Origin: a virus
Taxonomy: Duplodnaviria > Caudoviricetes
Reading direction: 5' to 3' (one strand)
DNA: 61,516 nt
Virus record (IMG/VR): IMGVR_UViG_3300031949_000035
Span: 1 to 61,516 of that record
Part shown: positions 33,548 to 51,215 of the stretch, in pieces
Layout of the letters: every line of letters begins with the position of its first letter
Position numbering within the stretch: the first letter of the stretch is position 1
Position numbers and translations under genes: made by a program
The notes under the pieces: model-generated
Told to the model about the DNA's origin: nothing
Seen by the model: the letters and a program-made list of their open reading frames with translations, nothing else
Database searches by the model: none

Positions 33548-33650
33548 TGCCAACGCAAAGTTGAGCACCAGCCAACAGCGCGAAGGAAAACTATTAATAA
33601 TACTAAAAATGACCCCTCTGTTGGCTGTGCGCTCGAACGCCGGGTTATGC
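33548..33650 (-). other. attC-like site 8 (long)
   Basis: TGCCAAC..CAGCCAACAG...CTGTTGGCTG..GTTATGC. Confidence 0.85.
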
Positions 33651-34468
33651 CCCTCACGCTGTGGCATGGGGATTGCCTCGATTTGATGGCACAGATACCC
33701 GATGCGTCGGTAGATATGATCTTGTGCGACCTGCCCTACGGAACGACCGTCTGCAAATGGGATACGGTGATACCTTTTGAGCCGCTTTGGGCGCACTACA
33801 AACGCGTGATTAAGCCGAACGGGGCGATATTGCTCCTTGCGCAAACCCCCTTTGATAAGGTTTTGGGGGTAAGCAACCTGCCGATGTTGCGGTATGAGTG
33901 GATATGGGAAAAAACGGCGGCCACCGGCCACCTGAACGCCAAGAAGATGCCGATGAAGGCGCACGAGAACGTCTTGGTGTTCTACTCTCAGTTGCCGAAG
34001 TACAGACCGCAGAAAACAACAGGGCATAAACCCGTGAACAGTTACACAAAACACCAAGACGACGGCGAATGCTACGGAGCAACCATGATTGGTATCAGTG
34101 GCGGTGGAGCGACTGACCGCTACCCTCGGAGCGTATTGCAGTTTCAGAGCGACAAGCAAACCTGCAGCCTTCACCCAACTCAGAAGCCTCTGGCACTGAT
34201 TGAGTACATGATCCGCACCTACACTGACGGAGGCGAGACGGTTTTGGATAATTGTATGGGTAGCGGAACTACGGGCATCGCGTGCCTGAATACAGGGCGC
34301 AACTTCATCGGAATAGAAAAAGACCCAAAATACTTTGAGATTGCACGGAATAGGATTGAGGGGCATAACGTTCAAATTGAGGGGCAGGCCGCTCTGGCCT
34401 GTCCCTCTCGAATGCAGGGTTGGGCTCTGCGAAAAGTGAGAAATGAAACTTATAATGAACAGATTTAA
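33647..34468 (+). CDS. N4-C/N6-A DNA methyltransferase (beta class), cassette
   Basis: GDCL, DLPY, HPTQKP, DNCMGSGTT; ends GTTATGCCCCTCA / TGAGGGGCATAAC; reads through attC 9. Confidence 0.92.
   Translation: MPLTLWHGDCLDLMAQIPDASVDMILCDLPYGTTVCKWDTVIPFEPLWAHYKRVIKPNGAILLLAQTPFDKVLGVSNLPMLRYEWIWEKTAATGHLNAKKMPMKAHENVLVFYSQLPKYRPQKTTGHKPVNSYTKHQDDGECYGATMIGISGGGATDRYPRSVLQFQSDKQTCSLHPTQKPLALIEYMIRTYTDGGETVLDNCMGSGTTGIACLNTGRNFIGIEKDPKYFEIARNRIEGHNVQIEGQAALACPSRMQGWALRKVRNETYNEQI
34363..34425 (-). other. attC-like site 9
   Basis: GCATAAC...CAGGCC-GCTCT-GGCCTG...GTTGGGC. Confidence 0.9.
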
Positions 34469-34525
34469 CGATGAAGACGACGGATGGGATTACGATCCAT
34501 CCATACCTGATGATGGGTGGGGAAA

Positions 34526-35023
34526 ATGAAAACCCCCGCCAAACTTAAACAAGAATCTCGATGGGTGGAATCTGATGTAGTTTACACTCCAGACCATATT
34601 GCTGAGTGGATAGTAAACTATTTTAAACCACAAGGTTTATGCCTTGACCCTTGTAAAGGTGGTGGAGCATTTTATAATAAATTCCCCGGTGAAAAGGACT
34701 GGTGCGAAATCAGAGATGGTAGGAACTTTTTTGACCATACAACAAAGGCAATCTGGATTATCACAAACCCGCCATTTACAAATATAGAGCGATTCATGGA
34801 ACATTCATTTTCTCTGGCCGATAATGTGGTTTTCTTATTGCCTGCACATAAAACATTTTCTTCATGGGCGCGAATCCGGCTCATAGAAGCCTATGGCGGG
34901 ATTGTAACAATCTTATTGGTAAAAGGTCAGCAGTGCCAATTCCCTTTCAGATACCCTTATGGAGTATTTCACTTCCAGAAAGGATATAATGGCGGCACAC
35001 TGATACAGAACTGTGAAGCCTAA
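34526..35023 (+). CDS. Small amino-methyltransferase (NPPF), cassette
   Basis: YTP, LDPCKGGGAF, ITNPPF. Confidence 0.85.
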   Translation: MKTPAKLKQESRWVESDVVYTPDHIAEWIVNYFKPQGLCLDPCKGGGAFYNKFPGEKDWCEIRDGRNFFDHTTKAIWIITNPPFTNIERFMEHSFSLADNVVFLLPAHKTFSSWARIRLIEAYGGIVTILLVKGQQCQFPFRYPYGVFHFQKGYNGGTLIQNCEA

Positions 35024-35077
35024 CGGCAAGGTAAGAGGCTCGCCGTAGGCGAGTCCTGCTTGACCGTTAGGTTAGGC
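35018..35077 (-). other. attC-like site 10
   Basis: GCCTAAC...CTCGCC-GTA-GGCGAG...GTTAGGC. Confidence 0.9.
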
Positions 35078-35098
35078 TGGTTTTTATTGGAGACGAAG

Positions 35099-35281
35099 AT
35101 GTGAAAAGAAATACGCATAGAAATTTGCTGGGGATGGATAGATTGGATTTGCTCCAAAAAACGCTATGGTGTACGGATTCAATCTTTCTGGATCGGAGCA
35201 AGCCTGCCGATACCGAAGCGCGATTTTGATAAGCGCGAAAAGTCGATGAAGGAATGGCTAAAAACTATGCGTGATGCCTAA
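35099..35281 (+). pseudogene. Cassette ORF with TGA at codon 2
   Basis: GGAG SD, ATG-TGA, then 58 open codons (KEIRIEICWGW...MRDA) ending at the attC TAA. Confidence 0.6.
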
Positions 35282-35339
35282 CGTTTGAATTAAGGGGTAG
35301 GCCGCTTTTGGCCTGTCCCTCTTGAATGAGGGGTTCGAC
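35276..35339 (-). other. attC-like site 11
   Basis: GCCTAAC-6-ATTAAGG...CTTGAAT-5-GTTCGAC, bottom-strand layout on the + strand. Confidence 0.9.
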
Positions 35340-35361
35340 CCCGATACTACGGAGAACGGTT

Positions 35362-35733
35362 ATGGGATGGAGCATTGGCTACGACACAAACTGGAAGCGC
35401 GACATAGGCTATGGTGTACCGGCTTATTGTGACCATCCAGGCTGCAATGAAGTCATTGATCGCGGATTGAGTTATGTTTGTGGTGGTGAGCCTTTTGGTG
35501 GGGAACATGGCTGCGGTTTGTACTTTTGTGGGAAGCACACCACTTACCACGAAACGCGGGGAAGTGTTTGCGCGCCATGTGCAGATAGAAGGAAAAAGCC
35601 ATTTGAAGCCAAGCCAGACCATCCTGATTGGATAAAGTGGAAACTAACTGATGAAAGTTGGCGGCAATGGCGGGACGAGAACCCTGATGCAGTAGCGAAA
35701 TTAAAGGGGTCGAACGTAAAGTTAACCGGCTAG
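35362..35733 (+). CDS. Cys/His-rich cassette protein
   Basis: RDIGYGVPA.CDHP.C...IDRGL...CG; ends GTTCGACCCC / GGGGTCGAAC. Confidence 0.8.
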   Translation: MGWSIGYDTNWKRDIGYGVPAYCDHPGCNEVIDRGLSYVCGGEPFGGEHGCGLYFCGKHTTYHETRGSVCAPCADRRKKPFEAKPDHPDWIKWKLTDESWRQWRDENPDAVAKLKGSNVKLTG

Positions 35734-35775
35734 CCGGGCTTTATCGGCTAGTCCGAGTTGAACGCCGGGTTATGC
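35709..35775 (-). other. attC-like site 12
   Basis: GTCGAAC...CTAGCCG..CGGCTAG...GTTATGC. Confidence 0.9.
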
Positions 35776-35791
35776 CGGTTTTGAGGTAAAT

Positions 35792-36495
35792 ATGAAATCA
35801 ATTGCTGGAACACTTGCTGCACCATTTCCGTATTTTGGCGGGAAAGCGAACGCTTGCGAATTGGTGTTTGGGATGGTGAAAAGATTGTTGACCGCCGCAA
35901 GCTCCCGCATCTTGGTGACGCTGGGCGGGGCATCAACCGCCAGCTCCCGCATCTTAGCGCTGGGCGGGGCGAATACATCGCGGAGTGGTTCAACCTGCTA
36001 CATGCGCGCCTTCGTGATGTGCGGGTAGCCTGCGGCGATTGGCAGCGGGTGTGCAAAGATAGCGTGACCACGCGTCACGGCTTGACGGGTATCTTTCTTG
36101 ACCCGCCATACGATAAAGGCGCGATGGACTACGGCGCTGGTGGCATGGGGCAAAATATATCATCATCGGTGAGAGAGTGGTGCGCGGATAACGGCGATGA
36201 TCGGCAATTGAGGATCGTTATTTGCGGACACGCGGGGGAACATGACGACCTACTAAAGATAGGCTGGAAACTGCACAAGTGGACGGCTCGTAAAGGGTAC
36301 GCTCTGACCGACGAAGCAAAAGAAAACTCAGCCAGCGAAACGGTGTGGGCTTCGCCGCATTGCCTGCACAAGAAAAACGAACAGGGCGGATTGTTTGATA
36401 TTTCCGACACGCCACGCGATGCTTACGAGCAAACAGACTTCATAGCCAGTGCGCTAGGGGTGGGGCATAACCAGTTATTAGACAGTTGGGAATGA
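35792..36495 (+). pseudogene. Dam/D12-class adenine methyltransferase with internal deletion and frameshift
   Basis: PFPYFGGK in one frame, IFLDPPY in another; motif I (EPF.G) region absent. Confidence 0.8.
36465..36484 (-). other. attI-like simple site at the head of array 1
   Basis: Minus strand TGTCTAAT-AACTG-GTTATGC: L box, 5-bp spacer, core; no hairpin. Confidence 0.6.
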
Positions 36496-36505
36496 TTTAA
36501 AAGTC

Positions 36506-36534
36506 TTGACATTTACTCTTTCTTATGGTATAAA
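36506..36534 (+). promoter_or_regulatory. sigma70-like promoter pointing away from the attI-like site
   Basis: TTGACA-17-TATAAA. Confidence 0.65.
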
Positions 36535-36959
36535 AGAGGTATCCCCGTGTGAAACCCCCCTTCTTACACATATCGTTAACAAATGCTCACCCCTACAAGA
36601 ATCGTGCCATTAACGTTTTAATTCTATAAGTATTTTAATTGGCTATCTAAAACAAAGATTTATATAAAAAAGCAGGTTAATCACAGAACTACCCACCGCA
36701 CGTTCCCAAAACCGGAACGCGCAATATGTATATGCTTCTGCAAAAAAACTACCATAGCCTTCTTGCCTACCACTGTAGCCGCAATATTAAAAAGAAAATT
36801 ATTGCAGGCATTGTTATAAAATAAAGAGGTTAAAATAATATTCCAAATAGTATAAAATCTATGCTTAGTTGAAAATTGGGGAGAGGTTAAAATAAGCTCC
36901 CCCCTTTTTCTATCGCCTGCCCCTGTATAAACCCCCCCCCTGTTTCCGGGGTGTGGGGG

Positions 36960-37180
36960 TGGGGGGGCGACATGGCCTGGCTGGGTAAGAGGTGGGGGCT
37001 TTGCTATGCATGGCATGGCCTGACAAGGCAAGGCTGAGTAAGAGGTCTTTGATAGACATGGCCTGGGGGACTATGTGCATGGCCTGGGGGGTAAGAGGTG
37101 TGCTTTGTGAGCTGATAGGCTAGGCATGGCCAGGGAGGGGAGGAAAAAGTTGATAGGTAGGTATGGGTAGGGGGGAGAAA
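36960..37180. repeat. G-rich interspersed short repeats downstream of terS (candidate packaging/terminus region)
   Basis: CATGGCC x5, GTAAGAGGT x3, GATAG x3. Confidence 0.7.
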
Positions 37181-37210
37181 GTGCGTTGTGGGGCATCCTG
37201 GAAGTTTTCC

Positions 37211-37759
37211 CTACTCCTCTGCCCCATCCGGCTGGGGCAGGTCTTGCTCCTCTATGGCCGTGCCGATGCTAATGTTAAGTGGCTCAAAAGGAGCTGTAAC
37301 TTGTTGTTTTTTCAGGCTTATCAGCATCTCAGAAAAGCTTTGGACTTGGACATTAGCCGTGGATTCCCCCTCCTCTAGTCGGCGCATCTTAAAAAGAGAT
37401 TCCAAGACCTGCACCGCCTCCTTATACGTAATTTCTTCAGCTTTTTCCTCCAAAAGGCTTAATTTATTAAGTGCTAGGCTTAAAGTTTTAAGCTCTGTAC
37501 CCCTCAAAAAGTCGGCGCAATGTTTGCGATAATAGTCTAAATCAACTTTTGCGGGTAATTTTTCAACGCATTTTCTAATGGTGGTATGTAAACGGGAGAC
37601 GGGTACTCCTTGGGAGTCGGCGATTTCTTGGTAAGTTTTCCCTTGGGCGCGGAGGTGGAGAGCTAGGGGGAGGTCCACTTTTTTTCTTTCTAGGTTTTTT
37701 TCTGGTGCTTGGGCGTCTGGGTGCCCCTCTGCTGCGTCTTGGTTGAGTTTGATATCCAT
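37211..37759 (-). CDS. terS: Terminase small subunit-like HTH protein
   Basis: LRAQGKTYQEIA...GV HTH and RRLEEGESTANV C-terminal motif; start uncertain (ORF open to 37888). Confidence 0.65.
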   Translation of the reverse strand: MDIKLNQDAAEGHPDAQAPEKNLERKKVDLPLALHLRAQGKTYQEIADSQGVPVSRLHTTIRKCVEKLPAKVDLDYYRKHCADFLRGTELKTLSLALNKLSLLEEKAEEITYKEAVQVLESLFKMRRLEEGESTANVQVQSFSEMLISLKKQQVTAPFEPLNISIGTAIEEQDLPQPDGAEE

Positions 37760-37996
37760 GTATGGGGGGGCCTGAGATCGTGCGCTGTGGGCGATTGTAG
37801 CCCGGGTTTTTTTGGGATTTTGTAGTGTAACATTTTTGGTACTATTTTGCAAGCAGTTTTTTTGACAATTTTTGGTCTGAAGTGACATTTTTTTGGTTCA
37901 TTTTGCAACAATTTTTGGTATTTTTGGTTTTGGCTTTTGGGTGGTAGTGGGGGGAAAAGCCCTTTAAAATCAAGGAGTTACGATATTTTTAAGTTT

Positions 37997-38012
37997 TGGT
38001 ATGGGTTGTGCA
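37997..38012 (+). promoter_or_regulatory. sigma54-like -24/-12 promoter for early genes
   Basis: TGGTATGGGTTGTGCA has canonical GG-N10-GC spacing. Confidence 0.45.
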
Positions 38013-38029
38013 TACTATATATATAAGAG

Positions 38030-38063
38030 GCGGCAAAAGCCGCAACCCACGGCGGGCAGCCGG
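38030..38063 (+). repeat. Double-hairpin leader, copy 1
   Basis: GCGGCAAAAGCCGC-AACCCA-CGGCGGGCAGCCGG. Confidence 0.9.
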
Positions 38064-38084
38064 GGACTTTTACTGGAGATTAAA

Positions 38085-38339
38085 ATGAGCACAAAAATTA
38101 TTGAAAGCATTATTTTAGATGGCGGCAAGGTTCAAGGCGGTGTTTTTTTGCAGACCGCAGAAGATATTATCTCAGATCAAGTGAGCTGGGGAGACGCGGA
38201 TGGCAGCAAGAACGCTGACTTTACAACATCAGGGTACTGGATTACTACTGATGACGGACAAGATCCCATAGGAATAGATACCGATGAAGAGCTAAAAGAC
38301 GTCTGCCCAGACAGTGACTATTCCACTCATGAGGAGTAA
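38085..38339 (+). CDS. Acidic early protein
   Basis: GGAG SD; Asp/Glu rich. Confidence 0.7.
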   Translation: MSTKIIESIILDGGKVQGGVFLQTAEDIISDQVSWGDADGSKNADFTTSGYWITTDDGQDPIGIDTDEELKDVCPDSDYSTHEE

Positions 38340-38353
38340 AAAAAGGAGAAGAC

Positions 38354-38545
38354 ATGAAAACGGAAAAAATAGTGATTTTGGAATCAAACAAAGACCGCGC
38401 TTATAGCATAGTGTCTCCGTCTGAGTGTGGCCTTTGGCCCGTCTCGGCCTCATCTACCGCCGCCACTTGGGAGGGCGGCATTGCGGGTATAGCATACTAT
38501 ATGGCCACTGCTCCGGCGGGGTCTGCGGAAAGGAGTAAACGATGA
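38354..38545 (+). CDS. Hypothetical early protein
   Basis: AGGAG SD. Confidence 0.6.
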   Translation: MKTEKIVILESNKDRAYSIVSPSECGLWPVSASSTAATWEGGIAGIAYYMATAPAGSAERSKR

Positions 38546-38778
38546 TTAAAGCCGACTGGGATATGCCCTATGGGGAGAGGGGAATCGATATGGAAACTAT
38601 AGACATAGACGAAAAGTATGGGATTACATACACACTAGCGGACGGGACAGAAGTGGAGTGCCCGCCGCAAGGGGGGGTCTGGATCACAACCCCAAGACGT
38701 GAGCGGACCCAAGTTTCAGGGACCTGCGATACACCTTACCGCTACGTGCTGCTTGCACTGAAGGGGCTAGCTGAGTAG
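38542..38778 (+). CDS. Hypothetical early protein
   Basis: AGGAG SD, ATGA overlap. Confidence 0.6.
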   Translation: MIKADWDMPYGERGIDMETIDIDEKYGITYTLADGTEVECPPQGGVWITTPRRERTQVSGTCDTPYRYVLLALKGLAE

Positions 38779-38810
38779 GCCCCTGGTCCCTCCCCCGGCT
38801 CCCCCTCTAC

Positions 38811-38871
38811 ACCGGGGGAGCTTGATGGTGGGATCACGCGGCAAAAGCCGCAACCCACGGCGGGCAGCCGG
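38811..38871 (+). repeat. Double-hairpin leader, copy 2 (extended)
   Basis: 58 of 61 nt identical to 39321-39381. Confidence 0.9.
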
Positions 38872-38892
38872 AAACTCGAAAGGAGACAAACC

Positions 38893-39321: not shown

Positions 39322-39381
39322 CCGGGGAAGCTTGATGGCGGGATCACGCGGCAAAAGCCGCAACCTACGGCGGGCAGCCGG
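39321..39381 (+). repeat. Double-hairpin leader, copy 3 (extended)
   Basis: See copy 2. Confidence 0.9.
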
Positions 39382-39405
39382 GACACTTTTTTAAAGGAGT
39401 AAAAG

Positions 39406-39884: not shown

Positions 39885-40037
39885 CTTTTTGGAAAAGGGG
39901 AGAATAAAATGAGAGACCGAGAACCAATAGACCTGACTTTCGCTTTTACTTTTTTAGTCCTTTGCGTGTGCTTCTTTTTTATAGCCTTTTCATCAATTTC
40001 AATTTACTTTGCTTTCTACTTTTAAAGGAGAAATGGC

Positions 40038-42815: not shown

Positions 42816-42818
42816 CCA

Positions 42819-45490: not shown

Positions 45491-45530
45491 CTTGAGAAAT
45501 AATTTAACTCTGTTTTAGGAGGAAGTTGAA

Positions 45531-46115
45531 ATGGTAGAAAAAAGGGTACGGCAGGTAACTCCGCTGGGTGAGGCAAAGTGGGCGCATGTGCATACACCCA
45601 AACCGCCATTTGTGGACGAGTCCGGCAAAATTCAAGGAACGCCGAAATATCAAATAGACCTTCTCTTTAACAAAGAAGACAAACCGTGGGCGGAATGGGC
45701 GGAAAAAGTGATGGGGAAAATGAGGGCACTGCCCAGCCAGATCGATAAGCGCACAGGGGACGCTTTGCCAAAGCAGTCACCCATAAAAAGAGAGCTGGAT
45801 GAGACAGACCAACCGACAGGGAGGTTCTACGTAACTTTCAAAACCTCGGAAAAATTTAAGCCGGGGATTTTCGATAGGTTTGGGGCTCCAATCCCCGAAA
45901 CCGTCTTAGTGGGCAATGGGAGCACGGCGAGGGTGAGTTACTCTGAGAATATATATAGCGCGTTTGGCGGGGGAATAAACTTTTACCTAAACGCCGTGCA
46001 GGTCCAGGATTTGGTTGAGTATAAGTCGCAAACAGCCGATTCTTACGGTTTCCCCGTTGAGGAAAACGACGACAATGGCGCGGCAGTAGAAGACGACGAC
46101 GATGTCCCGTTTTAA
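45531..46115 (+). CDS. ssDNA-binding protein (gp2.5/DUF2815-like)
   Basis: TP.G.A.WA, GNGS, YLNAVQV, acidic DDDVPF tail. Confidence 0.85.
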   Translation: MVEKRVRQVTPLGEAKWAHVHTPKPPFVDESGKIQGTPKYQIDLLFNKEDKPWAEWAEKVMGKMRALPSQIDKRTGDALPKQSPIKRELDETDQPTGRFYVTFKTSEKFKPGIFDRFGAPIPETVLVGNGSTARVSYSENIYSAFGGGINFYLNAVQVQDLVEYKSQTADSYGFPVEENDDNGAAVEDDDDVPF

Positions 46116-46163
46116 CTATGAAAATATGGCGGCAATGTGCATATTGTGGAGAGATCACAAATT

Positions 46164-46550
46164 ATGAGAAAAAAGGTGCATGAAAAATATGGCGGGCAAT
46201 GTGCATATTGTGGAAAGGTCATCACTCTAAAACAGATGCAAATTGACCACATTATCCCAAAACGGGCTCTCTCGGAAACAGAGAGATGCCTGATTGTTGG
46301 AGGCCGTAAATTTACCGAGTATGAATTAAACGATTTTCACAACCTGGCCCCTGCGTGTAGGCCGTGCAACAACTTTAAATCGGGGATGCCCTTGGAGGAC
46401 TTCAGACATGAAATAGCGGCGCAACCCGGACGGTTAAGGCACTACCGGAATCAGTTTCGCTTGGCCGAAAGGTTTGGCCTAGTGTCAGTCAACGATGTCC
46501 GGGTGGTATTTTTCTTTGAGAGCTATGATAGTTTCGTGGGGGGGATATGA
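46164..46550 (+). CDS. HNH endonuclease
   Basis: CAYCG, IDHIIP, NL.PACRPCN..K. Confidence 0.9.
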   Translation: MRKKVHEKYGGQCAYCGKVITLKQMQIDHIIPKRALSETERCLIVGGRKFTEYELNDFHNLAPACRPCNNFKSGMPLEDFRHEIAAQPGRLRHYRNQFRLAERFGLVSVNDVRVVFFFESYDSFVGGI

Positions 46551-46765
46551 TTTGCATGGACTGTAAACGTGAAGTTAAATATTTTCCAAGGGAAGGAGAG
46601 TTGCAGGCAATTTTGATTGAGTCTCCTCCACCTGGGGCAAGTGGAAATAGTATTTATAATTGCGAGGTATGTTATAACGCGCCGCTGACCGCAAACCCGG
46701 TCGAGGCATACGAAAAAGTGAAGGAGTTATTAGACCGGCGCGACCTTACGCGCTGTTTTTATTAA
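46547..46765 (+). CDS. CxxC hypothetical protein
   Basis: ATGA overlap. Confidence 0.55.
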   Translation: MICMDCKREVKYFPREGELQAILIESPPPGASGNSIYNCEVCYNAPLTANPVEAYEKVKELLDRRDLTRCFY

Positions 46766-46787
46766 TTCTTTATAATGTAAGTCTGAA

Positions 46788-46850
46788 GTCTAACTCTCCG
46801 CTTGAGGGGCGCGACTGAAAGGAGCGTCCCGCTCGAAGCGGTTGTTATGT
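46788..46850 (-). other. attC-like site 13
   Basis: GTCTAAC...GTTATGT. Confidence 0.85.
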
Positions 46851-46999
46851 TTCAAACAAACTATGCGTTTTCTGTCTCTATGAGCCTCCCCAGGCGGGGG
46901 ATAATCAGTGTGCAGAGAAATCACCTGATTTACAAAACGAGGCGACATCACCAACGCGCCTATCTACACATGACGGCTGGCCGATCCAGCCTCCTAAGA

Positions 47000-47087
47000 A
47001 GATAACGCCGTGCTGAACCGCACGGGAACAGACAAATGCCAAAACCGACCGCGCTTATTCCGTGTCGGTTCGAGCAGATTGTTAACA
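47000..47087 (-). other. attC-like site 14
   Basis: AGATAAC..TGCTGAACCG...CGGTTCGAGCA..GTTAACA. Confidence 0.85.
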
Positions 47088-47101
47088 CTTTTTGTTATTT
47101 T

Positions 47102-47178
47102 GCGGAGGTAGTTTAATTGGTAGAACAGTTGACATTCCAGTTAACCAGTGGCGGTTCAAACCCGACCTCTCCGCTCCA
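47102..47178 (+). tRNA. tRNA-Gly(TCC)-like element, non-canonical, overlapping the Mom-like gene start
   Basis: Acceptor GCGGAGG/TCTCCGC-T-CCA, D arm, TTCAAAC T loop; anticodon loop of 6 or 8 nt and a T-stem mismatch. Confidence 0.6.
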
Positions 47179-47722
47179 ATATTTCATAGAGCCAGTGAGA
47201 TACGAAGCAGCGAAAGCCTTTGTTGAGCATTGGCACTATTCAAAGAGGATGCCAACAGGGAAAAACATCTGCTTTGGATTGAGAAGGGCTGGCGAAATGT
47301 ACGCGGTGATAGTTTACGGCATAGGCGTGAATCCGTATCAGGCGCAGTTTTTAGGCGTGAAAGAGTGCATGGAAATAAAAAGGATGTGCCGGAGAGAGCC
47401 GAAAGAAGACTATCCTCTTTCACGGCTGATTAACCTGACGACAAAGATGCTGAAGAAGCAGGAGAGTTTTCAGGCTGTTGTGGCTTTTGCTGACCCGGAG
47501 CAAGGGCACGAAGGGACAGTCTACAAGGCCGCAGGATACGAACACAAAGGGATGAGCAACGCAGAGTGGCATCTTGAAGACGAAGACGGCAACAAGAGGC
47601 ACAGGCGATTTGCTTTCAGAATGGCAAGACGGAACGGTATTTCTGTTTCTGAGGCAAGAGATCAGTTAAACGTAAAAAGAGTGCAGACCGCCCCGAAGCA
47701 CAGATGGGTGAGGTTTGTATGA
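47117..47722 (+). CDS. Mom-like adenine-modification (GNAT-fold) protein, cassette
   Basis: HWHYS, EIKRM, FADP.QGH.GTVYKA.G; ends GTTAACACT / AGTGTTAAC; start uncertain. Confidence 0.85.
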   Translation: MVEQLTFQLTSGGSNPTSPLQYFIEPVRYEAAKAFVEHWHYSKRMPTGKNICFGLRRAGEMYAVIVYGIGVNPYQAQFLGVKECMEIKRMCRREPKEDYPLSRLINLTTKMLKKQESFQAVVAFADPEQGHEGTVYKAAGYEHKGMSNAEWHLEDEDGNKRHRRFAFRMARRNGISVSEARDQLNVKRVQTAPKHRWVRFV

Positions 47723-47726
47723 AGAG

Positions 47727-47785
47727 TGTTAACGTTAAATTAAGGGGCGCGCTTTAGCGCGTCCCGCTTGAATGAAAGGTTAGAC
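47727..47785 (-). other. attC-like site 15
   Basis: TGTTAAC..ATTAAG...CTTGAAT-5-GTTAGAC. Confidence 0.9.
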
Positions 47786-48043
47786 ATGAGAATTAAACAA
47801 TGTCACCCAGCATGGCCGCAACATGCGTCTTTCAGTTGCCCGACTTGTGGAAGTTTATATCAAGACGGGGATGAATATGATGAACATTCATACGGGCCAG
47901 ATGACGGTGAAAGCATGGCTCAATGTTTGCGGTGTAACAACGGGTTTATCGTGCGGAGAATTGTTACCGTAACTTACCACACCGAGAAACCCGGCAATAA
48001 AATACCTGTTGTTGTCATACGCCGGGATCATAAAGATGCCTAA
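47786..48043 (+). CDS. Zinc-ribbon cassette protein
   Basis: CPTCG and CLRC..F.V.R.V...Y. Confidence 0.7.
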   Translation: MRIKQCHPAWPQHASFSCPTCGSLYQDGDEYDEHSYGPDDGESMAQCLRCNNGFIVRRIVTVTYHTEKPGNKIPVVVIRRDHKDA

Positions 48044-48096
48044 CGACAAGCTAAGCCGCCGCGCTTTTTGCGGTCGGCTTGAGCGATTTGTTAAGT
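48038..48096 (-). other. attC-like site 16
   Basis: GCCTAAC..CTAAGCCG...CGGCTTGAG..GTTAAGT. Confidence 0.9.
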
Positions 48097-48102
48097 ATTT
48101 TT

Positions 48103-48315
48103 TTATTTATCATCGGATTTTTGATTTTCTCCGAAATTTAAATTTAATGGTTGTCTTAATTCAATTTGAAAGGATGCATCAGACCATGAATTTTTACCAT
48201 AATCAATCGTTGAAATTGTGGCTTTATATGTTTCATTTGCGGCATCAGAAATAGCTTTTGCAATAATGGACTCCATTTGTTGAACAGAAATAGATTTTAA
48301 TTTATTTTCAAACAT
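48103..48315 (-). CDS. AT-rich cassette hypothetical protein, canonical orientation
   Basis: 70-aa ORF inside the GTTAAGT / ACTTAAC cassette. Confidence 0.6.
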   Translation of the reverse strand: MFENKLKSISVQQMESIIAKAISDAANETYKATISTIDYGKNSWSDASFQIELRQPLNLNFGENQKSDDK

Positions 48316-48343
48316 AATTAATTTCTTTTCAGGAGGTATAAAA

Positions 48344-48562
48344 ATGACGACCGCCGATGCAGTCGAATTTCACAAAATTATGAAGTATCTTAGTATTTAT
48401 TATCCTATCAATTCGATAAACAGTGATACGGTTTATGTTTATTTTGATGCCCTTTCCGAATATAAAGTTGAAGATATTTATAAAGCGGTAAAGTTATATA
48501 TTAAAAAAGAGACAAAATTCCCCAGTGTTTCTGAGTTGATTTCTTATTTATGTCGAACTTAA
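48344..48562 (+). CDS. G39P-like helicase loader/inhibitor N-domain, cassette
   Basis: AGGAGG SD; YF.AL..Y....I..AV...IK..T.FP.VSEL. Confidence 0.65.
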   Translation: MTTADAVEFHKIMKYLSIYYPINSINSDTVYVYFDALSEYKVEDIYKAVKLYIKKETKFPSVSELISYLCRT

Positions 48563-48619
48563 CGATAAGCTCACCAGTTGCCAGGTTTATTGGCAATCTG
48601 GTGGAGCGCCTTGTTAGGC
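48557..48619 (-). other. attC-like site 17
   Basis: ACTTAAC..CTCACCAG...CTGGTGGAG..GTTAGGC. Confidence 0.9.
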
Positions 48620-48636
48620 GCAGAAAGGATTGACAA

Positions 48637-49131
48637 ATGAACAAAACTATGAGGACTATAGATAAAGAAGGTGGAGCGGCTGTTGGCTCGACCGATTTGT
48701 TAGCCGAATTGACGGAGCGGCGAAGCAAGTTCGTATATGATGCCGCCCGACTCGCCGCACAAGCTGCCAACGCACCAATAATCCCCGTGCCGTGGGACGA
48801 GCGCGAAGAACCTTTCCAGGTACAATTCCGAAAAGTCATAGACCGGCAATGCGGAGAACAGCGCTCTCGCTCACCGGAAGAACTACACGGTAGCTGGATG
48901 CAGGCATACTTCGGGATGGGCTGGGTGTTCGGAACTGAATACAGCCGCGAGAACAAGACGCATCCAGACCTCGTACCATACGCAGACCTTGGCCAACTCG
49001 AACGAGATAAAGACGCTGTGTTCGTGTCTCTCTGCGAGATTGCGCGCCAATGGGTGTATTCAGCTAACTCTCCGCATGAGCGCGCCGCCGAAGGCGGTCC
49101 GCTCGATGCGGTGGTTGTGCGTCAAACGTAA
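48637..49131 (+). CDS. RyR-domain-like phage protein; both termini attC-encoded
   Basis: H.SWM......GW..G and KTHPDLVPY.DL...E..KD; half attC at about 48672-48705. Confidence 0.75.
   Translation: MNKTMRTIDKEGGAAVGSTDLLAELTERRSKFVYDAARLAAQAANAPIIPVPWDEREEPFQVQFRKVIDRQCGEQRSRSPEELHGSWMQAYFGMGWVFGTEYSRENKTHPDLVPYADLGQLERDKDAVFVSLCEIARQWVYSANSPHERAAEGGPLDAVVVRQT
49062..49120 (-). other. attC-like site 18
   Basis: AGCTAAC...CCGCCGAAGGCGG...GTTGTGC. Confidence 0.9.
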
Positions 49132-49144
49132 CTACGGAGTGAGG

Positions 49145-49900
49145 ATGAATGAGTTGGCACTTTTTGCAGGAGCAGGCGGAGGCATCTTGGGAGGGCACTT
49201 GCTTGGATGGCGCACCCGATGCGCTGTTGAGATTGATGCCTACTGCCGAAGCGTGCTGCTCGCCCGCCAACGCGACGGACTGCTGCCAAGATTCCCGATT
49301 TGGCACGGCGTGCGAACATTCGACGGAAAGCCTTGGCGCGGGCGAATTGATGTTGTCTCCGGGGGCTTCCCGTGCCAGGACATCAGCGCAGCCGGCAAGG
49401 GCGCAGGACTCAGCGGAGAGCGCAGCGGATTGTGGGGAGAAATGGCCCGCATCATTGGCGAAGTACGACCGCTGTACGCGTTCGTGGAGAACTCGCCAAT
49501 ACTCACTTCTCGGGGGCTTGGACGAGTTCTGGGAGACTTGGCCGAAATGGGGTTTGATGCGCGGTGGGGAGTGCTGGGCGCGCGACACGTTGGCGCATGC
49601 CACCGACGCGACCGGCTTTGGATTTGTGCCAACCGTGCTGACATCGGAAGCGACGGGGCCTGGCCTACATGGGAACGGGAGCCACAATTTCCGAACGTGG
49701 TTTCGAGAGAACAGCACAGAGCGCAGGTTGCCGCTGCACGGGGAACTTATGATGCTATGGCCGGTGGGCTGGGCAAGCGCTGGAGAGCAATTGGAAATGG
49801 ACAAGTTCCGGCAGTGGCAGCGGCAGCATGGCGGATTTTGACGCACAACGCCAAGGGTGAGCGGCGGCATTATCGCCCGCTCGACCCGTTGGTTAGGTAA
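49145..49900 (+). CDS. C5 cytosine DNA methyltransferase (alpha chain), cassette
   Basis: LFAGAGG, GGFPCQD, FVEN, H.R.R, AIGNGQVP; ends GTTGTGCGTCAAA / TTTGACGCACAAC. Confidence 0.92.
   Translation: MNELALFAGAGGGILGGHLLGWRTRCAVEIDAYCRSVLLARQRDGLLPRFPIWHGVRTFDGKPWRGRIDVVSGGFPCQDISAAGKGAGLSGERSGLWGEMARIIGEVRPLYAFVENSPILTSRGLGRVLGDLAEMGFDARWGVLGARHVGACHRRDRLWICANRADIGSDGAWPTWEREPQFPNVVSREQHRAQVAAARGTYDAMAGGLGKRWRAIGNGQVPAVAAAAWRILTHNAKGERRHYRPLDPLVR
49149..49841 (+). CDS. Overlapping +1-frame polypeptide carrying a motif IX-like segment (beta chain)
   Basis: 230 open codons; LPLHGELMMLWPVGW resembles motif IX, which the main frame lacks. Confidence 0.65.
   Translation: MSWHFLQEQAEASWEGTCLDGAPDALLRLMPTAEACCSPANATDCCQDSRFGTACEHSTESLGAGELMLSPGASRARTSAQPARAQDSAESAADCGEKWPASLAKYDRCTRSWRTRQYSLLGGLDEFWETWPKWGLMRGGECWARDTLAHATDATGFGFVPTVLTSEATGPGLHGNGSHNFRTWFRENSTERRLPLHGELMMLWPVGWASAGEQLEMDKFRQWQRQHGGF
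49843..49898 (-). other. attC-like site 19
   Basis: GCACAAC..GGGTGAGCGG...CCGCTCGACCC..GTTAGGT. Confidence 0.9.
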
Positions 49901-49917
49901 ATACTATGTTGTGGCGA

Positions 49918-50127
49918 TTAACCTTTTTTAGTTATTCCAGCGGAGGGATATTTATTTTGCAACATTGCAATAGACTCATCTCGAAATTTTTGAATGTCAT
50001 TGTCTGTAAGTGTTCCTGGCGGGGCGACACTCAAAAGTCTATCAATAACTTTTTCCAAAACGTTGATCCTAAACTCAACGTCAATAACAGAATTAGCAAT
50101 ATCAATACCGCCGACCTGTATTCCCAT
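49918..50127 (-). CDS. Cassette hypothetical protein, canonical orientation
   Basis: GAGGTG SD; 69 aa. Confidence 0.7.
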   Translation of the reverse strand: MGIQVGGIDIANSVIDVEFRINVLEKVIDRLLSVAPPGTLTDNDIQKFRDESIAMLQNKYPSAGITKKG

Positions 50128-50133
50128 AGTGAT

Positions 50134-50475
50134 TCACCTCGTATCAGTGGTAATAGTTGGAATCTTCAAATTGGCCCCGATATTCCCAGATTTTATATAT
50201 TTTTCGTAGATAGCGGCTGCGACCAAGGAGGCAATAACCCCTAAGATAAATGTACAAATCAGAGAGTAAACAAACCGAGAGGTTTTTGACCACCACGGAG
50301 GATAATAAGCCATTCTCCACGTTACATTATTACATGAAGGGCATTCGATAGGAGTGCCTTCAGAAATGTCAGTTACTCTCATTTCTTTAGAGCACTTAGG
50401 GCAAGGCATATCGTATTCTACAGCCTTTTTGACTACTAATTTTGGCCCATTAAAAATGGATGGTATAGTTGGCAC
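50134..50475 (-). CDS. Zinc-ribbon plus TM cassette protein, canonical orientation
   Basis: CPKC, CPSC, one TM helix; GGAG SD. Confidence 0.7.
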   Translation of the reverse strand: MPTIPSIFNGPKLVVKKAVEYDMPCPKCSKEMRVTDISEGTPIECPSCNNVTWRMAYYPPWWSKTSRFVYSLICTFILGVIASLVAAAIYEKYIKSGNIGANLKIPTITTDTR

Positions 50476-50513
50476 TAACGCAGCTCCATATTTACTATGA
50501 ATCTATTTTTGGA

Positions 50514-50576
50514 ATCTAACGACCCAAGTTGAGCGGAGGCACCGCAGGTGACTTCCGCTCGAACGACTGGTTAGCC
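50514..50576 (-). other. attC-like site 20
   Basis: ATCTAAC..GTTGAGCGGA...TCCGCTCGAAC..GTTAGCC. Confidence 0.9.
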
Positions 50577-50612
50577 GACGAACCGAAAACTTAAACCATA
50601 AGGAGAAGAAAG

Positions 50613-51215
50613 ATGGAGTTTCAGGGATTTCCGAAGATTGCCCGCCTCAGCCGGGAGTGCATTATCACCGAAAAGATTGATGGGACCAATACCCAGGTCT
50701 GCATCCAGGTGTTGCCTGATGATGCGGTTATGCCTACCGATACGCCCATTGTCGCAGTGCGCGGGAATCTACTGATCTATGCGGGGTCCCGAACCCGATG
50801 GATTACGCCCAAGGATGACAACTACGGTTTTGCGGGATGGGTAGAGCGGAACGCCGTTGAACTCGCAAAACTAGGCGAAGGGCATCACTTTGGGGAATGG
50901 TGGGGATGCGGAATCCAGAGGAGATACGATCTCAAAGAGAAGCGCTGGAGCCTGTTCAACGTGTCCCGCTGGAACGGGGAGGATCGCCCCGCTTGCTGCG
51001 ATGTGGTCCCGACAATTTACAAGGGTGATTTCACCAATGATGCCGTGACAAATGCGATTGAAGACCTCCGAACCAATGGTAGCAAAGCATCTCCAGGTTT
51101 TATGAATCCCGAGGGAATCGTTGTTTATCACACGGCTGGACGAATGTATTTCAAGAAGACCATCGAGAAGGATGAAGAACCAAAGGGTAAATGGATGGCT
51201 GAAAGAGTCGGCTAA
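50613..51215 (+). CDS. RNA ligase family nucleotidyltransferase, cassette
   Basis: FPKI, TEKIDGTN (motif I), DNYGFA, FGEW, PEGIV; ends GTTAGCCGAC / GTCGGCTAAC. Confidence 0.88.
   Translation: MEFQGFPKIARLSRECIITEKIDGTNTQVCIQVLPDDAVMPTDTPIVAVRGNLLIYAGSRTRWITPKDDNYGFAGWVERNAVELAKLGEGHHFGEWWGCGIQRRYDLKEKRWSLFNVSRWNGEDRPACCDVVPTIYKGDFTNDAVTNAIEDLRTNGSKASPGFMNPEGIVVYHTAGRMYFKKTIEKDEEPKGKWMAERVG

What the first reader, a model, noticed from the sequence alone, without database searches (positions are those of the whole stretch)
33647..51215. Cassette cargo is enriched in DNA modification and counter-defence
Seen: cassettes encode an N4/N6 MTase, an NPPF MTase, a broken Dam-type MTase, a Mom-like protein, a C5 MTase and an RNA ligase, and PAPS-reductase and DUF5131 genes flank the array 1 promoter. 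Established: orphan MTases and Mu Mom protect against restriction, and phage RNA ligases can repair tRNA cut by anticodon nucleases. Inference: the arrays are a swappable anti-defence library mirroring defence cassettes in host integrons, so the unknown small cassette ORFs are candidates for new anti-defence proteins.
Basis: partly seen in the sequence, partly recalled or inferred. Interest (0 to 1): 0.78.

Follow-up and report, generated by a model that had tools for sequence, protein, structure and literature searches.

The report
Phage cassette arrays carrying DNA-modification genes
A soil phage carries two arrays of integron-type gene cassettes whose identifiable genes are mostly DNA-modifying enzymes, which supports the idea that some phages keep a modular stock of counter-defence genes.

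Summary
The window is a whole phage genome: 61.5 kb, with ends that overlap by 142 nt. It has 24 attC-like sites, all in one polarity, in two arrays (30.2-35.8 kb and 46.8-52.4 kb). A covariance model built from 19 of them finds all four true attC sites of the class 1 integron on plasmid R46. No integrase gene was found.

Cassette genes confirmed:
- N6_N4 MTase
- a 165-aa NPPF MTase-like protein
- an internally deleted D12 (Dam) MTase
- Mom
- a short C5 MTase
- a 200-aa RNA ligase

PAPS reductase and DUF5131 flank a 12/12 sigma-70 promoter outside the arrays.

Every DNA MTase family match in six-frame scans lies inside the arrays. In 100 cassette ORFs from other viral attC arrays, Pfam finds N6_N4 MTase 6 times, Mom twice, C5 MTase once, Tad2-like once and NADAR once. 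In 74 ORFs from bacterial arrays with the same attC type it finds SIR2, HNH and toxin-antitoxin genes instead. Swapping and protection are untested, and MTases in phage cassettes are already in print (Qi et al. 2023).

Unexpected: the phage genes lie on the attC bottom-strand side, the reverse of bacterial integrons.

The parts
28341..28369 (+). sigma-70 consensus promoter (TTGACA-17-TATAAT) upstream of PAPS reductase and array 1
   Evidence: 12 of 12 consensus matches. A divergent 11/12 site lies at 28292-28264 (-).
26978..27685 (-). DUF5131 gene (outside the arrays)
   Evidence: PF07505, E 9e-29
28432..29184 (+). PAPS-reductase-family gene (outside the arrays)
   Evidence: PF01507, E 5e-18. 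51 homologous viral loci.
30198..30265 (+). attC E1 (bottom-strand form on +)
   Evidence: R1 55.6 bits
30445..30501 (+). attC E2
   Evidence: R1 47.6 bits
31116..31178 (+). attC E3
   Evidence: R1 71.4 bits
31421..31485 (+). attC E4
   Evidence: R1 41.8 bits
32564..32619 (+). attC E5
   Evidence: R1 54.3 bits
32942..32988 (+). attC E6 (short, 47 nt)
   Evidence: R1 28.8 bits, E 1e-4. Not in the training set..
33285..33406 (+). attC E7 (long, 122 nt, with a large terminal loop)
   Evidence: Boxes and arms read by eye. The fold pairs both arms with three bulges. The model sees only its 3' half, weakly (9.9 bits).
33548..33650 (+). attC E9 (long, 103 nt)
   Evidence: Read by eye. The L arms pair in the fold. 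No model hit.
34363..34425 (+). attC E10
   Evidence: R1 62.5 bits
35018..35077 (+). attC E11
   Evidence: R1 60.9 bits
35276..35339 (+). attC E12
   Evidence: R1 62.6 bits
35709..35775 (+). attC E13
   Evidence: R1 56.6 bits
46788..46850 (+). attC A0
   Evidence: R1 38.7 bits
47000..47087 (+). attC A1 (88 nt)
   Evidence: R1 15.3 bits, E 0.2. Boxes read by eye.
47727..47785 (+). attC A2
   Evidence: R1 57.4 bits
48038..48096 (+). attC A3
   Evidence: R1 53.1 bits
48557..48619 (+). attC A4
   Evidence: R1 51.3 bits
49062..49120 (+). attC A5
   Evidence: R1 31.5 bits
49843..49898 (+). attC A6
   Evidence: R1 41.6 bits
50514..50576 (+). attC A7
   Evidence: R1 47.8 bits
51210..51272 (+). attC A8, decayed: 50 nt identical to A7 but the 3' GTT box is lost
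   Evidence: R1 22.8 bits, E 0.003. Repeat D8.
51630..51692 (+). attC A9
   Evidence: R1 71.3 bits
52001..52063 (+). attC A10
   Evidence: R1 57.3 bits
52301..52366 (+). attC A11
   Evidence: R1 65.3 bits
30496..31107 (-). Reversed cassette gene, 203 aa, no family. Canonical orientation relative to attC.
   Evidence: ORF fills the E2-E3 interval. No PHROG or Pfam hit.
31838..32293 (+). Peptidase_M15 gene in a three-gene cassette (with 31555-31812 and 32312-32569)
   Evidence: PF08291, E 2e-21. phrog_16275 for 32312-32569.
33647..34468 (+). N6_N4 DNA methyltransferase. The ORF reads through attC E10.
34526..35023 (+). NPPF-motif MTase-like protein, 165 aa
   Evidence: phrog_799, E 1e-27, partial match..
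35362..35733 (+). Cys-rich phage protein of unknown function
   Evidence: phrog_18518, E 5e-41. 39 viral homologues, none beside an attC site.
35792..36495 (+). D12 (Dam) class MTase with an internal deletion and a frame change
   Evidence: DPPY motif.
47117..47722 (+). Mom-family gene
   Evidence: PF25680, E 1e-33
48103..48562 (.). AT-rich cassette (28% GC) with a reversed 70-aa ORF (48103-48315, -) and a 72-aa ORF (48344-48562, +)
48637..49131 (+). RyR-domain protein
   Evidence: PF02026, E 3e-8. phrog_5154.
49145..49900 (+). Short C5 cytosine MTase, 251 aa. The ORF reads through attC A6.
49918..50475 (-). Reversed two-gene cassette (113 aa with zinc ribbon and hydrophobic tail; 69 aa), 38.5% GC
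50613..51215 (+). RNA-ligase-family nucleotidyltransferase, 200 aa
   Evidence: PF09414, E 1.6e-9. KIDG motif. No PDB sequence hit.
51298..51678 (+). Widespread small protein of unknown function
   Evidence: phrog_30930. 2304 homologues. The model gives only weak OB-fold-like matches.
51713..52006 (+). Small beta-barrel protein of unknown function
   Evidence: phrog_16342 and phrog_2730. pLDDT 93, no significant PDB match.

Best explanation
The region holds two arrays of integron-type gene cassettes without an integrase (CALINs). They sit inside the rightward early/middle gene block of a complete, novel 61.4-kb phage.

Each attC site has these features:
- a 5' RYYYAAC box;
- a 5-nt spacer;
- an imperfect hairpin whose 3' arm carries three extra bases;
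- a second spacer;
- a 3' GTTRRRY box.

The phage has no recombinase of its own. Gain, loss and reshuffling of cassettes would therefore depend on an integron integrase supplied by the infected cell (inferred). The likely host is a freshwater or soil betaproteobacterium, because integrons in such bacteria use the same attC type.

The recognisable cargo is dominated by enzymes that alter phage DNA: N4/N6, C5, NPPF-type and decayed Dam MTases, plus Mom. Their most likely use is to escape restriction (inferred from the families). The remaining small ORFs belong to the same mobile, phage-borne gene pool and are reasonable but unproven counter-defence candidates.

Unlike bacterial integrons, the genes lie on the strand that carries the attC bottom-strand form. 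Each gene therefore has its own attC upstream, and 10 of 20 genes end in the TAA of the next recombination box.
For: The sites are attC sites:
- On 19 aligned sites, 81.5% of cells pair. 8 of 11 hairpin pairs show compensatory changes, 0 of 500 shuffles reach the observed score, and slid controls give 33-49% paired.
- The model R1 built from them scores 21 sites at E<0.01 in the window. All are on the + strand and all lie in the two arrays. The best reverse-strand score is 11.8 bits.
- In 50 kb of plasmid R46, R1 finds all 4 attC sites of the class 1 integron (53, 47, 35 and 29 bits), with one other hit at E<0.01.
- It also finds 3 sites in the published CALIN region of phage TJE1.
- The box, spacer and extra-base layout matches the description in Nivina et al. 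2016 (PMC5027507, passages).

No integrase and a complete genome:
- There is no PF00589 or TIGR02249 match in six frames.
- The genome is closed: the first 142 nt equal the last 142 nt at 99.3% identity.

Cargo in the window:
- The whole-genome six-frame scans for PF01555 and PF00145 hit only inside the arrays. PF02086 and PF02384 hit nowhere.
- The arrays span 12,178 of 61,516 nt.

The cargo is a mobile pool:
- 15 of 28 cassette ORFs match a Pfam or PHROG family, against 1 of 18 backbone ORFs between 36.6 and 44.8 kb.
- Cassette GC content ranges from 28% to 61%, against 46.9% for the genome.

Generality:
- One attC subtype pattern has 117 matching stretches in bacterial genomes and 41 in viral contigs.
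- Of 100 viral cassette ORFs, 6 are N6_N4 MTases, 2 Mom, 1 C5 MTase, 1 Tad2-like and 1 NADAR.
- The 74 bacterial ORFs give SIR2_2, HNH, DUF4917, BrnT, ParE and CopG, and none of the viral set among the 25 families shown.

Polarity, by the longest ORF in each inter-attC interval:
- window: 11 same, 2 opposite, 7 ambiguous;
- viral: 52 same, 11 opposite, 41 ambiguous;
- bacterial: 4 same, 38 opposite, 32 ambiguous;
- R46 and TJE1 controls: 4 opposite, 1 ambiguous;
- Fisher odds ratio 45, p = 3e-14.

All 8 MTase or Mom homologues in the other viral arrays lie on the bottom-strand side.
Against: - No recombination event was seen. There is no close relative to compare. The one sequencing run is held as contigs only.
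- Homologues of two cassette genes in 42 other viral loci have no attC within 3 kb. So these genes are not generally cassette-borne.
- One MTase is broken. The NPPF protein matches only the middle of its family profile. The C5 MTase matches only the N-terminal half of PF00145. Activity of these three is therefore uncertain.
- attC A8 has lost its 3' box, and five ORFs read right through an attC and end beyond it. These are signs of decay or fixation rather than active turnover.
- 13 of 28 cassette ORFs have no family, and none matches a known anti-defence family.
- The comparative sets were chosen through one attC subtype and use a longest-ORF heuristic. The contigs are not independent of one another. 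IMG/VR contigs may include host DNA. 10 of the 35 bacterial families were not shown.
- Phage TJE1 has the canonical polarity, so inversion is not a rule for all phages.
Confidence: 0.7

Rival explanations
1. The cargo is simply typical phage accessory ('moron') content. MTases are common in phage early regions, and their position next to attC sites here has no functional meaning. The arrays would be a frozen relic rather than a working library.
For: - Homologues of the Cys-rich cassette gene (39 loci) and of Mom (3 loci) in other viral contigs have no attC within 3 kb.
- A8 is decayed and several ORFs read through attC sites.
- One MTase is broken.
Against: - All MTase-family matches in the genome fall in the 20% that is arrays.
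- Unrelated viral genomes with attC arrays again carry MTases, Mom, Tad2-like and NADAR in the cassettes.
- Cassette GC ranges from 28% to 61%.
- The contrast in family matches (15 of 28 cassette ORFs against 1 of 18 backbone ORFs) points to imported cargo.
Confidence: 0.17
2. The hairpin repeats are phage regulatory elements (terminators, mRNA-stabilising or processing hairpins, or promoters) that only resemble attC. The 'cassettes' would then be ordinary genes separated by regulatory hairpins.
For: - The hairpins sit between genes on the transcribed strand, and their bottom-strand form gives the more stable fold (G:T pairing noted in PMC5027507).
- Qi et al. mention that attC sites may act as weak terminators.
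Against: - The model built from the repeats picks out the true attC sites of R46 and TJE1 almost exclusively.
- The same subtype forms arrays in bacterial genomes.
- The AAC and GTT triplets are invariant and three bulged bases are conserved, while the stems covary.
- Most sites have no T-run, and no sigma-70-like site on the coding strand falls in an attC. The only attC-overlapping promoter-like match, 30280-30251, is a 9-of-12 match on the minus strand at E1.
A regulatory side-role is not excluded.
Confidence: 0.08
3. The arrays are host integron DNA carried passively (a transduction-like pick-up) or joined to the phage by mis-assembly.
For: - The contigs of the one run that holds the sequence break at attC sites, and other contigs continue differently there.
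- The same attC type occurs in bacterial MAGs.
Against: - The record closes on itself.
- The arrays lie within one co-oriented gene block with ribosome-binding sites.
- The cargo matches phage families.
- The gene-to-attC polarity is the opposite of that in bacterial arrays.
Confidence: 0.03

Closest known systems
Phage-borne CALINs (Qi, Rajabal, Ghaly, Tetu, Gillings 2023, Front Microbiol, PMC9892861): Tetrasphaera phage TJE1, Pseudoalteromonas phage PH101, Polaribacter phage P12002L
   Same: These are clusters of attC sites without an integrase in virulent phage genomes. Their cassettes include orphan DNA MTases, and an anti-restriction benefit was proposed. Phage attC sites recombined with IntI1 in that study (section 3.4 read).
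   Different: - This phage has 24 sites in two arrays, covering about 20% of the genome.
- The cargo here also includes Mom, a C5 MTase and an RNA ligase.
- The genes here lie on the attC bottom-strand side, whereas TJE1 has the canonical polarity.
Bacterial integrons: class 1 mobile integrons (R46) and sedentary chromosomal integrons as stores of anti-phage defence (Darracq et al. 2024 preprint, 10.1101/2024.07.02.601686)
   Same: The attC architecture is the same, and one attC subtype is shared with arrays in bacterial MAGs. Both are modular single-gene units of varied composition.
   Different: - The phage has no intI, and no attI or Pc platform was identified.
- Gene polarity relative to attC is reversed.
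- The cargo is DNA modification and counter-defence, rather than defence, toxin-antitoxin or resistance genes.
- I read only passages of the preprint. They mention no phage-borne arrays.
Phage Mu mom and orphan phage MTases (anti-restriction by DNA modification)
   Same: There is a Mom-family protein (PF25680, E 1e-33) and MTases with no recognisable partner nuclease in the same cassette.
   Different: - These genes are packaged as integron cassettes.
- Their activity, target sequences and regulation are unknown.
- Mu's com/mom control was not looked for.
- That Mu Mom protects against restriction is recalled knowledge and comes from no call.
Phage T4 tRNA repair (Pnk plus Rnl1) against anticodon nucleases
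   Same: An RNA-ligase-family nucleotidyltransferase with a KxDG motif is present.
   Different: - It is only a 200-aa core domain.
- No polynucleotide kinase or phosphatase was searched for or seen.

Membership tests
Integron attC recombination site | Inverted core boxes, RYYYAAC at one end and GTTRRRY at the other, with invariant AAC and GTT triplets | tested here: met
   AAC and GTT are invariant in the 19 of 19 aligned sites. 23 of 24 sites keep both triplets; A8 lost its 3' box.
Integron attC recombination site | Imperfect hairpin conserved in structure rather than sequence, with unpaired spacers, a variable terminal loop and extrahelical bases on one arm | tested here: met
   8 of 11 hairpin pairs have compensatory changes, 84% of cells pair, and 0 of 500 shuffles reach the score. 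Three bulged positions sit on the 3' arm. Site lengths run from 47 to 122 nt. The layout matches PMC5027507.
Integron attC recombination site | Likeness to experimentally established attC sites | tested here: met
   Model R1 finds 4 of 4 attC sites of the R46 class 1 integron and 3 sites in TJE1's CALIN region. IntegronFinder and HattCI models were not available.
Integron attC recombination site | Recombined by an integron integrase as folded bottom strand | not testable with these tools
   This needs an attC x attI or attC x attC assay.
[quoted passage not shown] | Two or more co-oriented attC sites close together and no integron integrase nearby | tested here: met
   There are 12 + 12 sites, all on +. 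There is no PF00589 or TIGR02249 match in the closed genome.
Complete integron | intI gene, attI site and Pc promoter next to the array | tested here: not met
   No tyrosine recombinase was found in six frames. attI was not searched for.
Canonical integron cassette | The ORF lies on the attC top strand, so that bottom-strand insertion at attI puts it in sense to Pc | tested here: not met
   In the window, 11 intervals have the ORF on the bottom-strand side, 2 opposite and 7 ambiguous. The R46 and TJE1 controls are opposite. Four reversed ORFs (30496-31107, 48103-48315, 49918-50127, 50134-50475) are canonical.
Mom family (PF25680) | Full-length match over the curated cut-off | tested here: met
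   117 bits against a cut-off of 27.1, model 2-184 of 202.
D12 / Dam class N6-adenine MTase (PF02086) | An intact domain with both the AdoMet-binding region and DPPY | tested here: not met
   The homologues carry PF02086, but the window copy lacks residues of about 28-143 and changes frame. There is no PF02086 hit in six frames.
C5 cytosine MTase (PF00145) | Catalytic motifs plus a target-recognition domain of usual size | tested here: inconclusive
   The N-terminal half matches (model 4-166). Motif I, PCQ, ENS and a GNG(Q)VP-like end are visible in the translation. The protein is only 251 aa.
Orphan (solitary) MTase used for anti-restriction | No cognate restriction endonuclease alongside; phage DNA is methylated | not tested
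   Each MTase cassette holds one ORF. No systematic nuclease search was made, and the methylome is not available.
Known anti-defence protein families (Tad2-like, NADAR) | Pfam match in the window | tested here: not met
   PF11195 and PF08719 have no match in six frames. Both occur in cassettes of other viral arrays.

The most novel reading that the evidence does not exclude
Phages and bacteria that share one attC type keep two separate cassette pools with opposite gene polarity.

- Phage cassettes carry the gene on the attC bottom-strand side, with the attC upstream of the gene and the gene ending at the AA|C crossover point.
- Bacterial cassettes carry the gene on the top strand.

Bottom-strand recombination fixes orientation. 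A cassette that crosses from one pool to the other would therefore land antisense and stay silent. A phage counter-defence gene would not be expressed from a host integron, and a host defence or toxin cassette would not be expressed from a phage array. The four reversed ORFs in this phage, two of them in AT-rich cassettes, would be such captures.

The inverted layout also puts the recombinogenic strand on the non-template side of heavily transcribed phage genes, which could speed shuffling.

If this is right, 'inverted' attC arrays are a general, searchable marker for new counter-defence genes in uncultured phages.
Probability: 0.35. Interest if true: 0.9.

Novelty: new variant of a known kind. 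Interest (0 to 1): 0.72.

Why it matters
Bacterial integrons have recently been described as stores of anti-phage defence cassettes. This genome and the other viral arrays examined suggest that phages hold a counterpart built on the same recombination sites. That counterpart carries DNA MTases, Mom, and known inhibitors or reversers of defence (Tad2-like, NADAR).

If so, attC sites give a sequence-only handle for finding new counter-defence genes in metagenomic phages. The small unknown ORFs here would be a ready test set.

The reversed gene polarity, if it holds in a proper survey, is a new rule of integron biology. It bears on how cassettes move, or fail to be expressed, between host and virus.

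Tried and rejected
- **Close relatives, to look for cassette swaps.** Megablast of 33.0-52.5 kb and of 1-25 kb against 50,697 phage records found nothing. The terminase search found one distant contig (37% identity) in IMG/VR, and the same contig again in JGI metagenomes. The best phage-record terminase is about 30% identical. The 51 loci that share the PAPS reductase share nothing else with the window; model R1 hit only 3 of them (7 hits at E up to 1 with filters off on 5 loci).
- **Cassette-gene homologues elsewhere.** 0 of 42 loci had an attC hit at E<=0.05. This counts against general cassette linkage of those genes.
- **First polarity measures.** The longest-ORF-nearby measures were noisy, even for the window. 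They were replaced by the interval test, though they pointed the same way (bacteria 83 opposite and 5 same; viral 18 same and 7 opposite).
- **attC as promoter.** I considered whether the conserved TTGA of the 3' arm is a -35 box. The scan lists no + strand site at any attC, so I dropped the idea.
- **RNAalifold on the MAFFT alignment** gave only 10 pairs. I wrote the structure by hand and tested it.
- **Folds of two unknown cassette proteins.** 51298-51675 gave pLDDT 70.5 and only weak OB-fold-like rows (best E 4.7e-3, TM 0.37). 51713-52003 gave pLDDT 93.2 and a small beta-barrel with no row at E<=0.001. Neither pointed to a function.
- **Atlas.** The 35362-35730 protein falls among viral 'hypothetical protein' clusters.
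- **PDB sequence searches** found nothing for the RNA ligase or the NPPF protein.
- **Literature search** for DUF5131 with PAPS reductase returned nothing on function in the listing.
- **No tRNA genes**.
- **Sequencing runs.** One soil-metagenome run holds the stretch, as contigs only, and it may be the source sample. Its contigs break at attC sites. Loose ends at 33654, 48566, 48618 and 51684, and a joint from 35020 to 36468 between two ...TAAC boxes (shorter side 26 nt, depth 5), hint at other contexts. They may equally come from other organisms. I count this as no evidence either way.
- **Not in print, as far as searched.** Searches found only Qi et al. 2023 on attC sites in phages. None of the papers I read in part reports large arrays, reversed polarity, or Tad2 or NADAR cassettes. 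Supplementary tables of Qi et al. (sites per CALIN, cassette annotations) were closed and could bear on this.

Full report
**What the window is.** The window is the whole record. Its first 142 nt repeat its last 142 nt at 99.3% identity, so the assembly closes on itself. The unique genome is about 61.4 kb, although the source classes it as linear and 64% complete.
- Positions 1-27.7 kb carry leftward structural genes. The terminase and portal-like proteins are only weakly similar to known ones.
- Positions 28-52.6 kb carry rightward small genes.
- A giant leftward ORF runs across the junction.
- Nothing in 50,697 phage records matches at the DNA level.
- The only terminase relative in IMG/VR or JGI metagenomes is 37% identical.
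- There are no tRNA genes.

**The repeats are attC sites.** Repeat finding and a motif scan showed a recurring intergenic element on the + strand. Reading the sequence gives 24 copies, 12 between 30198 and 35775 and 12 between 46788 and 52366. Each has:
- a 5' RYYYAAC box;
- a 5-nt spacer;
- an imperfect hairpin;
- a second spacer;
- a 3' GTTRRRY box.

Lengths run from 47 to 122 nt. On 19 aligned copies a hand-written structure pairs 81.5% of cells. Of the 11 hairpin pairs, 8 change on both sides while staying paired. None of 500 shuffles reaches the score, and partners slid by 1-3 columns pair only 33-49%. The AAC and GTT triplets, and a bulged G in a conserved T.GA, never vary. Three bulged positions sit on the 3' arm.

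A covariance model of these 19 sites (R1), run with filters off, scores 21 sites at E<0.01. All are on the + strand, all lie inside the two arrays, and two were not used in training. The best reverse-strand score is 11.8 bits. Three long sites (E7, E9, A1) rest mainly on my reading and on folds.

**Test against true integrons.** In 50 kb of plasmid R46, R1 finds all four attC sites of the class 1 integron (53.1, 47.3, 35.4 and 29.5 bits) and one other hit at E<0.01. In phage TJE1, whose CALIN was published and tested at the bench by Qi et al. 2023 (PMC9892861; section 3.4 and passages read), it finds three sites around orf1-orf3. So the elements belong to the attC class.

In both controls the hits lie on the strand opposite the annotated cassette genes. 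The model therefore describes the attC bottom strand. This agrees with Nivina et al. 2016 (PMC5027507, passages). [quoted passage not shown] In the window the bottom-strand form is on the + strand, which is the coding strand of most cassette genes.

**No integrase.** Six-frame searches for the tyrosine-recombinase domain (PF00589, E up to 1) and for the integron-integrase model TIGR02249 found nothing. With a closed genome, this makes the arrays CALINs. Any recombination must use an integrase from the infected cell. That step is inferred, not shown.

**Cargo in the window.** I count 28 ORFs in or ending the cassettes. The identifiable ones are:
- N6_N4 MTase, 33647-34468;
- a 165-aa NPPF-motif protein that matches the middle of an MTase PHROG, with no Pfam or PDB support;
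- a D12 (Dam) MTase whose homologues are 320-370 aa with PF02086.
- Mom, 47117-47722;
- a 251-aa C5 MTase in frame 49145-49900, not the 230-aa ATG frame;
- a 200-aa RNA-ligase-family protein with a KIDG motif;
- an M15 peptidase;
- a RyR-domain protein;
- several Cys-rich or zinc-ribbon proteins.

That makes five of 28 ORFs DNA-modification genes. Whole-genome six-frame scans for PF01555 and PF00145 hit only these cassette genes, and PF02086 and PF02384 hit nothing. The arrays cover 12,178 of 61,516 nt. If the five genes were placed independently and at random, all five would fall there with a probability of about 3e-4. This is a post-hoc figure.

PAPS reductase and DUF5131 are confirmed. They flank a perfect sigma-70 consensus at 28341-28369, but they lie outside the arrays, and I found nothing on their role.

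**The cargo looks imported and the backbone does not.**
- 15 of the 28 cassette ORFs match a Pfam or PHROG family at E<=1e-3.
- Of 18 backbone ORFs between 36.6 and 44.8 kb, only one does.
- Cassette GC ranges from 28% to 61% around a genome mean of 46.9%.
- Against general mobility: homologues of the Cys-rich gene 35362-35733 (39 viral loci) and of Mom (3 loci) have no attC within 3 kb.
- In one viral contig the PAPS-reductase homologue sits between two attC hits (L004).

**Is it general?** I wrote a pattern for one attC subtype, shared by four of the window's sites. I estimate that chance would give about 0.5 matches. It has 117 matching stretches in one-per-species bacterial genomes and 41 in IMG/VR. 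The bacterial matches are mostly MAGs labelled Gallionella, Gallionellaceae, Sideroxydans, Nitrosomonadales, Rhodocyclales, Methylobacter and unnamed Betaproteobacteria. This hints at the host range.

R1 then found 180 sites (E<=1e-3) in the 41 viral loci, with up to 17 in one locus. It found 125 sites (E<=1e-5) in the 40 of the 117 bacterial loci that I scanned. Three of five viral records checked are rated 92-100% complete, one has terminal repeats, and none shares the window's terminase. Multi-site arrays therefore occur in unrelated phages.

I took the longest ORF of each inter-attC interval and scanned each set against Pfam.
- The 100 viral ORFs gave N6_N4_Mtase 6, Mom 2, DNA_methylase 1, Tad2-like 1, NADAR 1, and single hits to DUF7352, SEC-C, DUF551, Cons_hypoth95, UPF0020, Radical_SAM and GATA.
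- The 74 bacterial ORFs gave 35 families. The 25 shown were SIR2_2 (2), HNH families (2), Cupin_2 (2), DUF4917, BrnT, ParE, CopG antitoxin, GtrA, HxlR, generic SAM-MTase folds and others. N6_N4, Mom and PF00145 were not among those 25. Ten single-member families were not shown.

That Tad2 inhibits Thoeris and that NADAR reverses DarT-type ADP-ribosylation is recalled knowledge and comes from no call.

Caveats on this comparison:
- the loci were chosen through one attC subtype;
- the ORF choice is heuristic;
- related contigs are not independent;
- viral contigs may contain host DNA.

**Reversed polarity.** For each inter-attC interval of 150-1600 nt, I asked which strand holds an ORF that covers at least 55% of the interval and is at least 1.3 times longer than the best ORF on the other strand. 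'Same' means the strand that carries the bottom-strand form.

| Set | Same | Opposite | Ambiguous | Left out |
|---|---|---|---|---|
| Window | 11 | 2 (one a miscall) | 7 | 3 skipped |
| R46 + TJE1 controls | 0 | 4 | 1 | - |
| Viral loci | 52 | 11 | 41 | 5 skipped, 2 duplicates |
| Bacterial loci | 4 | 38 | 32 | 11 skipped |

Fisher's test on same against opposite gives an odds ratio of 45 and p = 3e-14. All eight ORFs in the other viral arrays that are homologous to the window's N6_N4 MTase or Mom are on the 'same' side.

Recombination occurs at AA|C of the bottom strand. In these phage arrays the unit therefore runs from the C of one 5' box to the AA of the next. Each gene then has its own attC upstream, and 10 of 20 + strand genes stop in the TAA of the next box (with A4 corrected to 48557).

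Four ORFs in three cassettes are reversed, which makes them canonical relative to attC. Two of those cassettes are AT-rich (28% and 38.5% GC).

I did not find this polarity described in the papers I could search or read. The supplements of Qi et al. were closed.

**What is not shown.**
- No exchange event was seen. There is no close relative, and the only run is contig-level and possibly the source sample.
- There are signs of decay. A8 has lost its 3' box while sharing 50 identical nt with A7. Five ORFs read right through an attC and end beyond it. One MTase is broken.
- Thirteen cassette ORFs have no family.
- Two confident or semi-confident models gave no informative fold match.
- Tad2-like and NADAR are absent from the window itself.
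- The tRNA-repair reading of the ligase is an analogy only.

**Verdict.**
- The inference that these arrays are a counter-defence-leaning cassette store that mirrors host integrons is supported by comparative evidence. It is unproven functionally, and its core (MTases in phage cassettes as anti-restriction) is already published.
- New here are the scale (24 sites, about 20% of a complete phage genome), the wider cargo pattern across viral arrays, and the reversed gene-to-attC polarity.

Noticed in passing
window 1-142 and 61375-61516; ORFs 3-2741(-) and 54930-61514(-): The contig ends overlap by 142 nt with 1 mismatch, so the genome is closed although it is labelled linear and 64% complete. 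Across the junction the two end ORFs join into one giant gene of roughly 3,060 codons, and neither part has a PHROG match.
   Followed up: partly
window 36.6-44.8 kb: Backbone early or middle genes are almost all orphans: 1 of 18 ORFs matches a PHROG. This contrasts with the cassette genes. Recognisable genes resume at 44.8-46.6 kb with a PolB-type exonuclease, an Enc34-like SSB and an HNH nuclease.
   Followed up: partly
window 50516-50565 and 51212-51261: attC A7 and A8 share 50 identical nt, but A8 has lost the 3' GTT box. The RNA-ligase gene and the next gene may therefore now form one fused unit. This looks like a recent duplication or recombination scar.
   Followed up: no
window 48097-48555 and 49899-50513: Two cassettes are much more AT-rich (28% and 38.5% GC) than the genome (46.9%). 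They hold reversed ORFs, which are in the canonical bacterial orientation relative to attC, so they may be captures from a host integron.
   Followed up: partly
window 49149-49841 (+), the frame overlapping the C5 MTase gene: The out-of-frame 230-aa ORF also hits a 'DNA methyltransferase' PHROG (phrog_1008, E 4e-13), although the MTase motifs are in the other frame. This is unexplained. The profile may contain mis-framed members.
   Followed up: no
L004:7861-7946 and 10732-10795: In another complete viral contig, the PAPS-reductase homologue (71% identical) lies between two attC hits on its own strand. The gene that is 'backbone' here is therefore cassette-borne there.
   Followed up: partly
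Genome-contig loci L104-L220: The window's attC subtype is common in MAGs of Gallionella, Gallionellaceae, Sideroxydans, Nitrosomonadales, Rhodocyclales and Methylobacter. This points to a freshwater, groundwater or soil betaproteobacterial host range. The one run that holds the phage is labelled soil metagenome.
   Followed up: partly
viral loci L221-L261: Many IMG/VR contigs carry multi-site attC arrays, up to 17 sites in one locus. Their cassettes include a Tad2-like protein, a NADAR protein and a radical-SAM protein.
   Followed up: partly
window 36508-36536: TTGACA-17-TATAAA lies just after the broken Dam gene, at the end of array 1. I read it by eye. It was not listed by the scan, because the last base of the second hexamer is A. 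It could restart transcription into the backbone block.
   Followed up: no
window 35020 and 36468: One contig of the soil run joins two ...TAAC boxes and skips 1,447 nt, which hold three cassettes. The shorter side is only 26 nt and the depth is 5, so this may be another organism. If real, it is what integrase-type excision would leave.
   Followed up: no
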